A DNA stretch of 64,000 nucleotides from Oligoflexales bacterium (GTDB lineage Bacteria; Bdellovibrionota_B; Oligoflexia; Oligoflexales; JAPPIL01). Where the stretch lies: positions 2,087,127 to 2,151,126 of the forward strand of contig OZ245333.1 in the NCBI GenBank assembly GCA_965226195.1. Direction: 5' to 3'. Below, one piece after another: positions 869 through 7,689 of the stretch. Below the pieces are notes generated by a model that made no database searches, had not been told where the DNA came from, and saw nothing but the letters and a program-made list of their open reading frames with translations. Within the stretch, counting starts at the first letter, position 1. Each line of letters starts with the position of its first letter. Both the position numbers and the translations under genes were made by a program.

Positions 869-1572
869 TGCTGCGAATTGACAATGCCAACGTTTGGTAT
901 GGGAAGATACAGGCCTTGCGGGGGGTGTCTTTGCATGTCGAGCAACATGAGATTGTAACCTTGATCGGGGCGAATGGTGCGGGCAAATCGACCTTGATGA
1001 TGTCGGTGTTCGGACAGCCGCCATTGCGCAGTGGCAGTATCATGTTTGAGGGGCAGGACTTGACGCATGTGCCTTCCCACAAGGTGTCGAGTTATGGCAT
1101 CACGCTTGTGCCAGAGGGACGTAGAGTTTTTCCGCAGATGACGGTAGTGGAGAATTTACTCATAGGTGCGATGCATCGCCGCGATCGTGGTATTAACGAC
1201 GATATCGAGCGGGTGTATGCGACTTTTCCTGTGCTGAAGGAACGCAGTGCGCAGCGATCTGGCACGTTGTCAGGCGGCGAGCAGCAGATGTTGGCAATTG
1301 GGCGCGGCTTGATGGCACGGCCTAAGTTATTGCTGCTCGACGAGCCGTCGCTCGGCTTAGCCCCGTTGATTATTCGCCATATATTTCAAATTTTGCAAAA
1401 AATCGCGGCGGAGGGCACGACGATTTTTTTAGTTGAGCAAAATGCAAACATGGCCTTGAAGTTTGCACAGCGCGGCTACGTGCTGGTCAACGGCAAGATT
1501 GCCCTGTCAGGGTCAAGCACCGAGCTGATGGCTAACGACGATGTGCAGCGTGCCTACCTCGGCGGGCATTAG
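868..1572 (+). CDS. livF: Branched-chain amino acid ABC transporter ATP-binding protein LivF
   Basis: 234-aa ORF. Walker A GANGAGKST, signature LSGGEQQML, Walker B LLLLDEPSLGL and the typical LivF C-terminus (DDVQRAYLGG). Confidence 0.9.
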   Translation: MLRIDNANVWYGKIQALRGVSLHVEQHEIVTLIGANGAGKSTLMMSVFGQPPLRSGSIMFEGQDLTHVPSHKVSSYGITLVPEGRRVFPQMTVVENLLIGAMHRRDRGINDDIERVYATFPVLKERSAQRSGTLSGGEQQMLAIGRGLMARPKLLLLDEPSLGLAPLIIRHIFQILQKIAAEGTTIFLVEQNANMALKFAQRGYVLVNGKIALSGSSTELMANDDVQRAYLGGH

Positions 1573-1591
1573 TAGATAGGACAACACCCTC

Positions 1592-4246
1592 TTAAAACTT
1601 CTTCAAAATTTTTGATCTTTTGGTTGAACTTTTAACAATAATATCAGGGGGTAAATTGGGGTAAACATCCTTATAAGAGGACGCATCATGCCTTGCAGTT
1701 GCATCATACCTTACATAAGATGGATTAGGAAGACCAAAAAACTCACGAATTTTTGTGGAGGTAAAAAAACTAGGCACATCAATTTTGTTTTCCCAAAGTA
1801 TCGTTATTATCTCATAGTCATAGTAAGGATTTTGAGGGTTTTCGTTGGCAATAATGAACATAATAGCAGGTTCTAGTCTAGCTTTTGCTTGCTCCCCTAG
1901 TTTCGCTAATACCTCGTACCAATACCACCTTCTACTAATGCCAGCTTCCGTTCGTAAGCGTGTCACTTCTGTGGAGTCTCTTAACTTATATCCTTTTCTT
2001 ATCAACTCCGAGTAAATCTCCGAGTCACCACTATCATAGAGTCCATCCCTATTGGCTTCAATAACTACAGATATTACAGCATTCTTTAATCTCTCTAGAT
2101 CTTTTCTCTCAGTTGCATTCGCAATGGCAAGTTGCTTGCGCAGTTTAGCTACATATCTTGCCGTTACCTCAATTCCTGTCTTAGATGAGACCCGTGCGGC
2201 AATTTCTGGATCATAATAAGGGTTATGTGGTTCTTCATCAGCAATGACTTCTTTGAAGGCACTTTCCAGATTATTATTGTGCAGATAATTCGTGATGGTC
2301 TGCTGTGGGATGAAAATACCCTCTTGTGTCAAGAGCTGGTTCTGAATCTGTTGTGCAGTGTGGCTATTATAACCACTGTCCTGCGTGATTTTTTTAGCAA
2401 ATTTCTTAAGCCAGCTGTGTTTGTATGCTTGGATATTATCTGTGCTTATGCCAGTAAGTTTTGCTACTTCTTCGTCGGTTAAATTTTTATCTGGAGTGTT
2501 CGATTTGAAAAAGTCAGAGAGAATTGCACGCTCCGCGATTGATCTTCTCTTATCTGTCTCACTTAGACCAAGTTTCTCCAGATACAGTTGAACGTTAGCC
2601 CTAACCGCGGGTAAGCCTGCCTCAGCCAGCTGCTCGTTGATCTCAGCATTGGTATGTATATTTGGAAACCTTTCATTAGCTATAATCTCTGCAACCATTT
2701 TCTCCTCAGTATTTATTGTCTTTAGCAACTGCTTAAAAGCATTGTCATCTTCGGCTAGGTGGAGCAAATTTATTTTGGGAGACGTGCTCTCAGATATAGT
2801 ATCTATTATTTTATCAGCAATGTTCCGATCAATGGGAGAGGAAGAGAAATGGCCTTTCAACCTTTTTTTTATCAGATAAGCACGTTGATTAAGTTTTGCC
2901 TCGACTGGTTTACTCTTTACTGCCTCTAAAGTCAAGTCGTAGAAATTAGCTTGCGACATTAACTCCATTTGTCGGTAAGCATCAGCCAACTGCAGTCTTA
3001 TGGCATCGTTGTTAGGATCGAGAAAAAAAGCGCGGCGAAGGTTAAGAAAAAACTCTGTTGCATTTTTGCTGCTATCAATTAGGTTAGCCACCTCTGCGTT
3101 GAAATCGAGGTAAGCATCGAGATTGTCAGGCATTAGCTCACCATCGTAGCCTTCTTCAGCTAAACGTAAAGCTACTCTGACCATCTTGTAGTGGTTGACT
3201 ACACCAGCTCCGTTAAGCTCACTCACCTCGTTGGTGACAGTTTTTATCGCCGTGCTTTCCAATAACCGCACAGCTTCGTCTTGTGTTAGTTGTGGCAGAA
3301 TACTTCTGACATCAGCTAACACTCCTGACACCGCGGGAGCGGCGGCACTTGTGCGGCGAAATCTTTTCTCTTTTTTGCCATCAAAAGAGAAAAGACGCTC
3401 ACCGGGAGCAGTAACGACGATACTACGATCTGCCACCGAGTATTCGCTGACGGTACCGTCAGGATTGGTAGCCCCGACAGGGATTATCTTTGCCTTGCCA
3501 TCCTGTTCAAGAGCACGCGAGGCGAGGATAACGTTGTCAGACTTTTCAGGAAAATAGTTGCCCGCGGCAGTAACGAACAGGGTCTTCTCACCCACAGGGT
3601 CAAGCTTATCGACATCTCTGGTATATGTATTTTTGGAAAGGTTTACCACACCGGGTAGCTTAAGGTATCGTCTGCCAGCAGCATTCGTCAGTGGATTTAT
3701 ATCGGATAGCAGGGAAATTTCACCTCTAGCGCTTATACCCGGCAACGGTGATTTACCCGCCAGCAGATGGGCAACCAGCACGCCATGCTCTGGGGGATTG
3801 AGCTTTTCTAGAAACCTAATTTCAGCAGCGCTCAGTGTCTCTTCAACTTCATGTTCAAACTCATCAGCATTAAGCGTATACTTGTCTGTAAGTCGTAACG
3901 ACTTGCGTATCTGTTCGGATGACAGAAACTTTCTGTACTCATCATCAGCAAATCCCACATCAAAAATCCTCACCTCTGAAGCATGCCAAGGAAACTTAAG
4001 CGATGCCAACAGCTGGTGCACTTCAGGTGTGCCGATAGCCTCGCGATCCCACAACTTGCTCAGCTTAAGACGGTCATAGGTGGTTTTCCTATACACCTTG
4101 CCCCAAAGAGCTTTCTCCAGCACAGCCCAATCGTGCGGGGCGAAACGTGCAATTTTACTAGTCTTGAGCAGTGCTGAGGACATTGCCGCGGTGCTGACCC
4201 CAGAGATGCACAGTAATATTATGAAATTTCTTAATAAATATCTCAT
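1592..4246 (-). CDS. Secreted subtilisin-like (S8) serine peptidase with a C-terminal array of sigma-54 RpoN-box/HTH-like repeats
   Basis: 884-aa ORF with an N-terminal signal peptide. S8 motifs occur in D-H-N-S order: VRIFDVGF, HGVLVAHLLAG, TAAGN, RTSAAAPAVSG. Residues ~517-845 hold about 6 degenerate ~45-60 aa repeats, e.g. VIADEEPHNPYYDPEIAARVSSKTGIEVTARYVAKLRKQLAIANATERK. These resemble the sigma-54 C-terminus (..AENP.KPLSD..I..L..GI.VARRTVAKYRE.L.IP....RK). Confidence 0.75.
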   Translation of the reverse strand: MRYLLRNFIILLCISGVSTAAMSSALLKTSKIARFAPHDWAVLEKALWGKVYRKTTYDRLKLSKLWDREAIGTPEVHQLLASLKFPWHASEVRIFDVGFADDEYRKFLSSEQIRKSLRLTDKYTLNADEFEHEVEETLSAAEIRFLEKLNPPEHGVLVAHLLAGKSPLPGISARGEISLLSDINPLTNAAGRRYLKLPGVVNLSKNTYTRDVDKLDPVGEKTLFVTAAGNYFPEKSDNVILASRALEQDGKAKIIPVGATNPDGTVSEYSVADRSIVVTAPGERLFSFDGKKEKRFRRTSAAAPAVSGVLADVRSILPQLTQDEAVRLLESTAIKTVTNEVSELNGAGVVNHYKMVRVALRLAEEGYDGELMPDNLDAYLDFNAEVANLIDSSKNATEFFLNLRRAFFLDPNNDAIRLQLADAYRQMELMSQANFYDLTLEAVKSKPVEAKLNQRAYLIKKRLKGHFSSSPIDRNIADKIIDTISESTSPKINLLHLAEDDNAFKQLLKTINTEEKMVAEIIANERFPNIHTNAEINEQLAEAGLPAVRANVQLYLEKLGLSETDKRRSIAERAILSDFFKSNTPDKNLTDEEVAKLTGISTDNIQAYKHSWLKKFAKKITQDSGYNSHTAQQIQNQLLTQEGIFIPQQTITNYLHNNNLESAFKEVIADEEPHNPYYDPEIAARVSSKTGIEVTARYVAKLRKQLAIANATERKDLERLKNAVISVVIEANRDGLYDSGDSEIYSELIRKGYKLRDSTEVTRLRTEAGISRRWYWYEVLAKLGEQAKARLEPAIMFIIANENPQNPYYDYEIITILWENKIDVPSFFTSTKIREFFGLPNPSYVRYDATARHDASSYKDVYPNLPPDIIVKSSTKRSKILKKF

Positions 4247-7472: not shown

Positions 7473-7598
7473 GATAAACTCCCGTAATAATGAAAAGATT
7501 AACAAAACAAGAGCTTTTTAACTTGGTGCTCTAAAAATTGCAACTAAAAAATAATTTTTTAACTATATTGGTTAGCTTTAGCTCCTGAGGTAATGATC

Positions 7599-7689
7599 TG
7601 TTGGTCAACGGCAAGATTGCCCTGTTGGGTTCAAGCGCCGTACTGATGGCTAATGACGATGTTATAGCGCCTATCTTGGCATACATTAG
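7599..7689 (+). pseudogene. Decayed duplicate of the livF 3' end (relic)
   Basis: About 91 nt align by eye to livF 1481-1572 at roughly 80% identity. The relic translates LVNGKIALLGSSAVLMANDDV against LVNGKIALSGSSTELMANDDV, then loses frame through a 1-nt deletion. Confidence 0.65.

What the first reader, a model, noticed from the sequence alone, without database searches (positions are those of the whole stretch)
1481..7689. An ~6-kb AT-richer insertion after livF, bounded by a decayed copy of the livF 3' end
The last ~92 nt of livF (1481-1572) recur at 7599-7689 at roughly 80% identity by eye. The relic still translates LVNGKIALLGSSAVLMANDDV before a 1-nt deletion breaks the frame. Between the two copies lie three genes for signal-peptide proteins of unknown function and about 1 kb of very AT-rich non-coding DNA (4247-5240). 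All of this is visibly lower in GC than the flanking livF and GDH genes. Integration into a gene's 3' end, with the element supplying a replacement end, would leave this signature. No integrase or recombinase remains, so the island would be old or mobilised in trans.
Basis: partly seen in the sequence, partly recalled or inferred. Interest (0 to 1): 0.65.

Follow-up and report, generated by a model that had tools for sequence, protein, structure and literature searches.

The report
Layered insertion scars after livF
The DNA between the amino-acid transporter gene livF and the gdh gene in this uncultured Oligoflexales bacterium was built up by repeated insertions of lineage-specific secreted-protein genes. 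At least two of these left a dead copy of the livF tail behind, so the repeat is real but marks an ordinary variable hot spot, not one 6-kb mobile island.

Summary
The last 92 nt of livF (1481-1572) recur at 7599-7689 with 74/91 identity and one 1-nt deletion (nhmmer E=8e-18). The 6 kb between the copies has GC 0.43 against 0.51 elsewhere, and cargo GC3 is 0.41-0.47 against 0.57±0.05.

Comparison with nine related Oligoflexales loci shows it is composite:
- A second, shorter livF-tail relic lies at about 4356-4384. It separates a p884 module from a p318/p403 module.
- A 0.75-kb AT-rich insert (4385-5133) is absent from a 98%-identical relative.
- The closest complete relative has only livF, a p318 orthologue and gdh.
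- Two more distant genomes carry the p884 gene directly after livF, at the same junction.

What follows the livF stop codon differs in every lineage sampled. No locus carries an integrase.

My best reading is serial, homology-anchored recombination at the liv operon terminus. Each event regenerated livF and pushed the older tail downstream. An integrase acting in trans is not excluded.

The cargo is clade-restricted. p884 is a secreted S8 protease with RpoN C-terminal-domain-like repeats, and p318 and p403 are near-ORFans. Interest is moderate.

The parts
868..1572 (+). livF, the branched-chain amino-acid ABC transporter ATPase. It is intact and is the last gene of the conserved livKHMGF block.
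   Evidence: Pfam ABC_tran E=4.7e-30. 97% aa identity to L005 and 85-91% to other relatives, with conserved upstream synteny.
1481..1572 (+). Repeat copy 1, the functional last 92 nt of livF.
   Evidence: Four of the five differences from L005 in these 92 nt lie in the last 16 nt. At three of them (TAC, GGC, TAG stop) the window matches the L006 type.
1571..1593 (+). Motif A, the short sequence that follows the livF stop (AGTAGATAGGACAACACCCTCTT). It abuts the p884 stop codon.
   Evidence: The same junction occurs in L006 and L096. It is homologous (about 20/24) to motif B.
1592..4246 (-). p884, a secreted subtilase (Peptidase_S8) followed by about six HTH units. At least three of the units resemble the RpoN (sigma-54) C-terminal DNA-binding domain.
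   Evidence: Pfam S8 E=2.7e-12 and Sigma54_DBD E=2.8e-17. Single repeats score E=4e-4, 1.4e-8 and 3.6e-4. PDB hits are RpoN CTD entries 2o8k and 2ahq. D96, H154, N230 and S300 are invariant in 14 homologues. The fold search returns subtilisins. The family has only 26 proteins.
4247..4355 (.). AT-rich upstream region of p884, with a promoter-like site for the minus strand.
   Evidence: TTGACA-17-TAATAT at 4316->4288, matching 10/12. It is 98% conserved in L013 up to about 4318.
4356..4384 (+). Relic 2, a dead copy of the last ~29 nt of livF including the TAG stop. Homology may begin near 4349.
   Evidence: The local alignment score beats all 300 shuffles. It matches the L012 livF end at 18/19. 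The orthologous copy in L013 matches the window's livF end over 29 nt at 90% (26/29; blastn E=3e-4; nhmmer E=9.5e-4). In L013 it is followed by the same downstream layout as L005's functional livF end.
4385..5133 (.). M2, a 0.75-kb AT-rich non-coding insert (GC 0.39) placed right after relic 2's stop codon. It is absent from L013.
   Evidence: In L013 window 4384 is joined to 5145 by 19 nt. No homologue was found in any locus, Pfam, PHROGs or Rfam. Its ORFs have flat GC1-3, so they are probably not coding.
5134..5202 (+). Remnant of the original livF-downstream region. It comprises ATCTTTGC..TTTTTCC, motif B (5151-5173) and a hairpin with a T-run (5178-5202).
   Evidence: It is collinear with L005 10706-10790, which directly follows L005's livF stop. 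The scan calls the hairpin terminator-like.
5241..6197 (+). p318, a predicted secreted protein of a tiny clade-specific family. Its ends are conserved and its centre is hypervariable.
   Evidence: Only 2 representative clusters were found among 1.84 billion proteins. The orthologue in L005 is 77% aa identical, with dN/dS 0.2. Identity to L005 is 93-100% at the ends and 48-78% across 5550-5960.
6294..7505 (-). p403, a predicted secreted ORFan. The likely start is the ATG at 7472, giving 392 aa.
   Evidence: The only hit among 5.8 billion proteins is itself. The part assembled in L013 is 98.9% identical. The AlphaFold model is unusable, with pLDDT 38.6.
7599..7689 (+).
   Evidence: A 24-nt perfect block lies at its 5' edge. 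Of 18 differences, 7 are states found in other functional livF genes and 11 are unique decay.
7696..7719 (+). Motif C, a decayed copy (about 16/23) of the livF-downstream motif. It ends 4 nt before the gdh stop. This match is weak.
   Evidence: by alignment and inspection. On its own it is not significant.
7724..10843 (-). gdh, a large NAD-glutamate dehydrogenase. It is the right-hand conserved anchor.
   Evidence: Pfam hits. Homology to L002, L003 and L005 stops exactly at its stop codon.

Best explanation
The livF-gdh interval is a composite variable locus at the terminus of the conserved liv operon. It grew by at least two successive insertions, plus one later small one.

In each large event, DNA arrived carrying an intact livF 3' end plus different downstream cargo. 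Such an arrangement exists in related genomes. I infer that it recombined with the chromosome through the livF homology on one side and a non-homologous join on the other. The known routes are homology-facilitated illegitimate recombination and single-crossover integration of a circularised fragment.

The result is a regenerated, functional livF followed by new cargo. The resident livF tail, with its downstream sequence, is displaced distally and decays as a relic.

Reading outward from livF, the layers are:
1. Functional tail, motif A and p884.
2. Relic 2, motif B, p318 and p403, later split in this strain by the 0.75-kb M2 insert.
3. Relic 3, motif C and gdh.

Shown: the relics, the module boundaries, the presence/absence pattern among relatives, the deviant composition, and the absence of a recombinase in the loci examined.

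Inferred: the recombination mechanism, the order of events, and that the cargo consists of secreted, fast-diversifying proteins used in interactions with other cells.
For: 1. Relic 3 is highly significant. Relic 2 is reproducible in two genomes.

2. L013 is 98% identical to the window. It shows relic 2 contiguous with the same 'stop, short spacer, motif B, hairpin, p318' layout that follows the functional livF in L005. The p884 module therefore sits between two copies of the livF terminus.

3. The block livF, motif A, p884 exists as a native arrangement in L006 and L096. The last 16 nt of the window's livF, its TAG stop and the immediately adjacent motif are of that type, while the rest of livF is L005-like.

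4. Content directly after the livF stop differs among the lineages sampled: the window/L013, L005, L006/L096, L007, L008, L010, L011 and L012. None of these loci has an integrase or recombinase Pfam hit.

5. Relic 3 has 7 of 18 differences that are states of other functional livF lineages. Six of these are at sites where the window and L005 share a derived base. There is also a syn:nonsyn excess before the frameshift. So relic 3 came from a livF that diverged as a working gene, not from a recent local copy.

6. A 24-nt perfect block at the 5' edge of the repeat fits a homology-dependent crossover.

7. Cargo genes are 6-12 times more diverged than the liv genes between the window and L013. p318 is an intragenic mosaic against L005. 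Both indicate frequent recombination at the locus.

8. Published experiments show that integration of circularised DNA through a gene-end fragment gives 109-950-bp duplications of that gene end flanking the insert (PMC3240628). Sequential displacement arrays have been ascribed to HFIR (PMC5361080).
Against: No donor arrangement was found for the p318/p403 layer.

No genome was found with livF directly abutting gdh, which is the ancestral state that relic 3 predicts.

L005 lacks relic 3 and p403, so a secondary deletion in L005 must be assumed.

HFIR is rare in experiments and usually causes deletions rather than duplications.

A 30-92-nt diverged homology is short for RecA-dependent crossover.

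Only 64 kb of a ~2.95-Mb genome was inspected, so a trans-acting recombinase cannot be excluded.

L013 is a 3x long-read contig and may contain errors.
Confidence: 0.55

Rival explanations
1. This is one or more classical integrase-mediated genomic islands that target the 3' end of livF and carry a replacement end in attP. The integrase gene has since been lost, or it acts in trans.
For: There are direct repeats made of the target gene's 3' end, with a perfect 24-nt block at the crossover-proximal edge. Composition is deviant. Presence/absence is polymorphic. Tandem arrays with gene fragments of different length are known at tRNA and tmRNA genes (my own knowledge, not tested here).
Against: No recombinase domain was found in the interval or in any of nine livF-downstream loci of relatives. 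No relative has a repeat at the -92 position; only L013 shares relic 2. The two relics differ in length (92 versus about 30 nt), which would require two different integrases. The modules are shared piecemeal with different relatives. The p884 module is only one gene plus 100 nt.
Confidence: 0.2
2. The relics are leftovers of chromosomal rearrangement rather than of insertion. A translocation or a partial duplication of the liv operon end brought the gdh block next to liv. The remainder of the second livF copy was deleted. The cargo genes are native, fast-evolving genes.
For: livF and gdh are neighbours only in the window, L005 and (probably) L013. In other relatives they lie far apart, and homology stops exactly at the gdh stop. 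Synteny around the liv block is generally fluid. The p884 family has several paralogues per genome at other sites.
Against: It does not explain why two separate livF-tail copies each precede a module. It does not explain why the p884 module has the L006-type junction, or the presence/absence of single modules between 96-98% identical genomes. The cargo GC3 is 2-3 SD below the genome background.
Confidence: 0.15
3. The repeat is a chance similarity or an assembly chimera.
For: None beyond the fact that the source is a metagenome-derived genome.
Against: nhmmer E=8e-18. The junctions are reproduced in independent assemblies L001, L009 and L013.
Confidence: 0.02

Closest known systems
Genomic islands integrated into the 3' end of tRNA, tmRNA or protein-coding genes (tyrosine-integrase islands, including tandem arrays)
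   Same: The target gene is kept intact by a supplied 3' end. The displaced 3' fragment forms a distal direct repeat. GC is lower, the cargo is strain-specific, and successive fragments mark successive arrivals.
   Different: No integrase was found here or at the same site in nine relatives. No att core recurs among relatives. The modules are tiny, one or two genes. One module's junction is the native gene order of a sister lineage.
Homology-facilitated illegitimate recombination, and single-crossover (Campbell-type) integration of circularised fragments (PMC3240628 and references cited in PMC5361080)
   Same: One junction lies in shared homology and the other is non-homologous. No element-encoded recombinase is needed. 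Campbell-type events duplicate the gene-end homology on both sides of the insert.
   Different: This is inferred from sequence only. The homology here is shorter (about 30 and 92 nt) than in the experimental cases. Competence of this organism is unknown; only dprA and type IV pilus genes were seen.
Sequential displacement arrays: Rhs/CDI C-terminal displacement and V. cholerae T6SS effector-immunity arrays (PMC5361080)
   Same: A conserved upstream gene serves as the anchor. The new 3' end and its cargo arrive next to it. Older 3' tips are pushed downstream as orphans.
   Different: livF is a housekeeping ABC ATPase whose tail is merely regenerated, not a polymorphic toxin. There are no toxin or immunity pairs, and the cargo is unrelated to the anchor gene.
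Integron cassette arrays
   Same: New genes are added at one fixed site and older ones shift distally.
   Different: There is no intI and no attC-like elements. The only recurring motif is the livF-downstream sequence itself.

Membership tests
Integrase-mediated genomic island at a gene 3' end | Flanking direct repeats made of the target gene's 3' end, with the gene restored | tested here: met
   1481-1572 versus 7599-7689, E=8e-18. livF is intact.
Integrase-mediated genomic island at a gene 3' end | Tyrosine or serine recombinase gene at one end of the element | tested here: not met
   No recombinase hit in Pfam or PHROGs for any ORF of 1573-7598. None appears in the gene tables of nine related livF-downstream loci.
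Integrase-mediated genomic island at a gene 3' end | The same att core or crossover position reused in independent genomes | tested here: not met
   No relative has a livF-tail copy at the -92 position; only L013 shares relic 2. Within the window the two relics differ in length, 92 versus about 29 nt.
Integrase-mediated genomic island at a gene 3' end | Composition deviating from the host genome | tested here: met
   GC 0.433 versus 0.509. GC3 z-scores -2.0 to -3.2.
HFIR / Campbell-type homology-anchored insertion | The donor-type arrangement (anchor gene directly followed by the cargo) exists in related genomes | tested here: inconclusive
   Met for p884: L006 and L096 have livF, motif A and a p884 homologue. 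Not found for the p318/p403 layer.
HFIR / Campbell-type homology-anchored insertion | The distal junction is non-homologous, with at most a few nt of microhomology | tested here: inconclusive
   Homology starts abruptly at 7599 and at about 4349-4356, next to the promoter regions of p403 and p884. Without the donor sequences, microhomology cannot be scored.
HFIR / Campbell-type homology-anchored insertion | The host takes up and recombines foreign DNA | not testable with these tools
   Only gene presence is available: dprA and a T2SSE ATPase upstream of liv, and pilMNO and a secretin elsewhere.
Integron | intI integrase and attC recombination sites between cassettes | tested here: not met
   No integrase. 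There is no repeated structured element between modules other than livF-terminus copies. Rfam found nothing.
Rhs/CDI/T6SS C-terminal displacement array | The anchor gene is a polymorphic toxin with variable C-terminal tips and cognate immunity genes | tested here: not met
   The anchor is a LivF ABC ATPase whose tail is conserved across relatives. The cargo has no toxin or immunity hits.
Peptidase S8 (subtilase), for p884 | Asp, His and Ser catalytic residues plus the oxyanion Asn in a subtilisin fold | tested here: met
   D96, H154, N230 and S300 are invariant in 14 homologues. Pfam score 47 bits against a cut-off of 21.8. Foldseek hits to subtilisins have probability 1.0, but the model has low confidence in this domain.
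Sigma-54 C-terminal DNA-binding (RpoN box) domain, for the p884 repeats | Sequence match to Sigma54_DBD above Pfam's gathering score | tested here: met
   63.4 bits against a cut-off of 22.8 for residues 658-715. Two more repeats score 20.5 and 20.7 bits, just below the cut-off. PDB entries 2o8k and 2ahq match at E~1e-4. DNA binding was not tested.

The most novel reading that the evidence does not exclude
The terminus of the liv operon is a dedicated, integrase-independent (or trans-served) cassette-accretion site in this Oligoflexales clade. The conserved ~23-nt imperfect palindrome after the livF stop (AGTTGACAGTGACAACACCTCTT) would act as a recombination site. The clade would use it to shuffle a repertoire of secreted effectors, including a previously undescribed protease fused to RpoN-domain DNA-binding repeats.
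Probability: 0.12. Interest if true: 0.7.

Novelty: new member of a known kind. Interest (0 to 1): 0.4.

Why it matters
This locus preserves a readable record of how a variable locus is assembled step by step next to a housekeeping operon, with no mobile-element genes present. The stacked gene-tail relics give the order of arrivals, and close relatives supply the intermediate states.

If the mechanism is homology-anchored recombination, it shows how uncultured, possibly predatory or host-associated Bdellovibrionota exchange secreted-protein genes.

The cargo itself is a lead. It includes a clade-restricted family of secreted subtilases carrying tandem sigma-54 C-terminal-domain-like modules, for which I found no description. 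Otherwise the phenomenon, a hot spot with a gene-end scar, is familiar.

Tried and rejected
- Two JGI metagenome scans. The gdh query found nothing. The livF query returned only relatives at 60% identity or less. The clade is not in that collection.
- A viral contig scan with the p884 alignment found nothing.
- Rfam on 1-14000 and on the whole window found only the two tRNAs.
- PHROGs and Pfam gave no hits for p318, p403 or the two ORFs inside M2.
- Single-sequence AlphaFold of p403 gave pLDDT 38.6, so the model is unusable and no fold search was run.
- The p884 model is confident only in the helical C-terminal half. The fold search returned only subtilisins.
- I tested whether the livF-downstream motif is a dispersed repeat or att-like site. 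It occurs only at livF-terminus copies.
- I tested whether relatives carry livF-tail relics. Only L013 does (relic 2); none has a copy at -92.
- I considered relic 3 as a recent copy of the resident livF. I rejected this because it keeps ancestral states at sites where the window and L005 share derived bases.
- I considered a further decayed livF tail at the right end of M2 (5117-5133). The match is not convincing.
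Full report
**Observation.** The last 92 nt of livF (1481-1572) recur at 7599-7689. The first 64 nt are 88% identical without gaps. The whole stretch is 74/91 identical with a single 1-nt deletion. A nucleotide profile built from the last 150 nt of livF of eight genomes finds 7596-7688 at E=8.3e-18, and nothing else of note in the window. Independent assemblies reproduce the junctions: L001 and L009 from Logan read sets, and L013 from another sample. 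This rules out an assembly chimera.

**Content and composition.** The window comes from an Oligoflexales (Bdellovibrionota) genome. The closest named records are Oligoflexales MAGs.
- Left of the interval lie livG and livF. To the right lie a large NAD-glutamate dehydrogenase, a GCS2 ligase, exbB and tRNA-Gly.
- Between them are p884 (1592-4246, minus), about 1 kb without a credible gene, p318 (5241-6197, plus) and p403 (6294-7505, minus).
- All three proteins begin with a signal-peptide-like hydrophobic segment. This is by inspection, not by a tool.
- The inserted 1573-7598 has GC 0.433 against 0.509 for the rest of the window.
- GC3 of the three genes is 0.41-0.47 against 0.568±0.049 for 41 other ORFs. 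That places them among the lowest four in the window.
- Neither Pfam nor PHROGs finds a recombinase.

**Relatives.** Exact-protein look-ups of livF homologues and p884 homologues gave nine related loci. The livKHMGF block is conserved in all of them, and in most dprA and a T2SSE ATPase lie upstream. The content directly after the livF stop codon falls into distinct groups:
- L005: a p318 orthologue, then gdh.
- L006 and L096: a p884 homologue, a TGase_elicitor protein and S8 proteases.
- L007, L008, L010, L011 and L012: each has different, unrelated genes.

None of these loci has an integrase. Only the window, L005 and (as far as its contig reaches) L013 have gdh nearby. In the genomes of L002/L007 and L003/L008, livF and gdh lie far apart, and homology to the window stops exactly at the gdh stop. 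The end of the liv operon is therefore a recurrent boundary of variable DNA in this clade.

**The interval is layered, not a single island.** L005 has flanks 96% identical to the window. It reads livF stop, 17 nt, a 23-nt motif (B), a hairpin with a T-run, the p318 orthologue, then the gdh stop. It has no p884, no p403 and no relic.

L013 is 98% identical to the window. It has livF, p884, p318 and p403 up to its contig end, but it lacks window 4385-5144. In L013, about 100 nt upstream of the p884 start, lies TGCCGTGTGCCTATCTCGGCGGGCATTAG. This is the last 29 nt of livF with its stop (26/29 to the window's livF end; blastn E=3e-4, nhmmer E=9.5e-4). It is followed by 12 nt, then ATCTCGGTTTTCC, motif B, the hairpin and p318. 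That is the same layout that follows the functional livF in L005.

The window has the same relic at about 4356-4384 in a more diverged form. Its Smith-Waterman score beats all 300 shuffles, and it matches the L012 livF end at 18/19. In the window the relic is separated from motif B by a 0.75-kb AT-rich segment, M2. M2 has no homologue anywhere I searched and no coding signature.

So the p884 module (1573 to about 4355) lies between two copies of the livF terminus. The motif that follows the livF stop occurs only at such places:
- After livF in the window, L006 and L096 (motif A).
- Before p318 in the window, L013 and L005 (motif B).
- In decayed form (about 16/23) after relic 3, 4 nt from the gdh stop (motif C). 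This last match is weak.

**Where the pieces came from.** In L006 and L096 a p884 homologue (61-64% aa) sits 16-20 nt after livF with motif A between them. The p884 junction in the window is therefore the native gene order of a sister lineage.

The window's livF is L005-like throughout (95% nt against 84% to L006). However, four of its five differences from L005 in the last 92 nt fall in the last 16 nt. At three of these (TAC, GGC, TAG stop) the window has the L006-type state, and the motif follows the stop directly. This fits a crossover close to the livF end that brought in p884 with a foreign terminus.

The dS of p884 against L006 (0.48) is lower than that of livG and livF (0.74-0.82).

Relic 3 is not a recent copy of the resident tail. 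Of its 18 differences, 7 are states present in other functional livF genes. Six of these lie at sites where the window and L005 share a derived base. The other 11 are unique, and they include the frameshift and a cluster near the 3' end. Before the frameshift, synonymous changes outnumber non-synonymous ones 5 to 3. Much of the divergence therefore arose while both copies were working genes. That means either different lineages, or a split older than the window-L005 split.

**Ongoing turnover.**
- Between the window and L013 the liv genes differ at 6 of 1560 sites. p884 differs at 66 of 2655 sites and p318 at 44 of 957.
- Against L005, p318 is 93-100% identical at both ends but only 48-78% identical across 5550-5960. 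Overall dS is 0.59 and dN/dS 0.2, while the flanks have dS 0.03-0.18.
- The last 90 nt of p318 are 100% identical to L005, and homology then stops at about 6216. The presence or absence of p403 plus relic 3 is therefore a recent indel, although relic 3 itself is old. A deletion in L005 is the simpler reading.
- A patch of 12 substitutions in 59 nt around relic 2 (window versus L013) borders M2.

**Mechanism.** I favour homology-anchored recombination without a dedicated recombinase (confidence about 0.55). Incoming DNA from related genomes carried a livF tail and different downstream genes. It recombined in livF on one side and joined non-homologously on the other, or it integrated as a circularised fragment by a single crossover.

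Both routes are documented. The second produces exactly a duplication of the gene-end homology on both sides of the insert (PMC3240628). Sequential displacement of older modules by this route has been proposed for T6SS and Rhs loci (PMC5361080).

Points in favour are the 24-nt perfect block at the 5' edge of the 92-nt repeat, the different relic lengths, the piecemeal sharing of modules, and the absence of integrases in ten loci.

Points against are listed under the best explanation. The main ones are that the homology is short, and that only 64 kb of this genome was seen, so a recombinase acting in trans remains possible. That is the rival integrase model, which I put at about 0.2. A pure rearrangement origin is less likely, at about 0.15.

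**Cargo.**
- p884 has an S8 domain with D96, H154, N230 and S300 invariant in 14 homologues. It also has a helical C-terminal half containing about six HTH units. Three of these independently match Sigma54_DBD and solved RpoN C-terminal domains. The family numbers 26 proteins in 5.8 billion, all from this clade, with several paralogues per genome. No paper in the library names both domains together.
- p318 has two related clusters among 1.84 billion representatives.
- p403 has no relative at all.
- Their function is unknown. That they are secreted, rapidly diversifying interaction proteins is an inference.

**Verdict.** The repeat is real and is a recombination scar. The 'single 6-kb island with lost integrase' reading is only partly right. 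The locus is a new example of a known kind, a variable hot spot with gene-end relics. It is notable for its cleanly stacked relics and for the unusual protease family it carries.

Noticed in passing
window 1592-4246 (minus strand): p884 belongs to a clade-restricted family of 26 proteins. They are secreted S8 subtilases fused to tandem modules resembling the sigma-54 (RpoN) C-terminal DNA-binding domain. The source genome and its relatives each hold several paralogues. I found no description of this architecture in the paper library.
   Followed up: partly
window 13334-13523 and 24308-24499: A ~190-nt direct repeat, 97-100% identical, with weaker homology continuing to about 13611 and 24554. 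The copies are 10,974 nt apart, and the first begins 28 nt after tRNA-Gly(GCC). There is no Rfam match. It could bound another mobile or duplicated segment.
   Followed up: no
window 10880-11051, 17373-17782, 26633-26664, 51625-51708, 53516-53557; also L008 18869-19047: A dispersed family of intergenic tandem arrays with a 28-nt period (units like CTCTTTGCCGCTTTCTAGCTCCGC), with up to at least 11 copies. The units are contiguous with no spacers, so these are not CRISPR arrays.
   Followed up: no
window 5550-5960 (inside p318): The centre of p318 is hypervariable, 48-78% nt identity to the L005 orthologue, while both gene ends are 93-100% identical. This suggests intragenic allele swapping or diversifying selection.
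   Followed up: partly
window 62162-62929, 35718-36926, 42010-42705: Three other ORFs have GC3 as low as the livF-gdh cargo (0.40-0.48 against a mean of 0.57). They may mark further inserted genes.
   Followed up: no
L005 10690-10722: In L005 the 9-mer TATCTCGGT from the livF tail recurs 3 nt after the livF stop. L013 and the window carry the equivalent ATCTCGG/ATCTTTG just before motif B. This may be the trace of a still older terminus duplication.
   Followed up: partly
L006 13385-20589, L096 778-7708, L011 and L012: In sister lineages the DNA after livF carries a cluster of secreted-enzyme genes: a TGase_elicitor protein, two or three S8 proteases, and one 1058-aa S8+PA protein. L096 also has an IS110-family transposase at the far end.
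   Followed up: no
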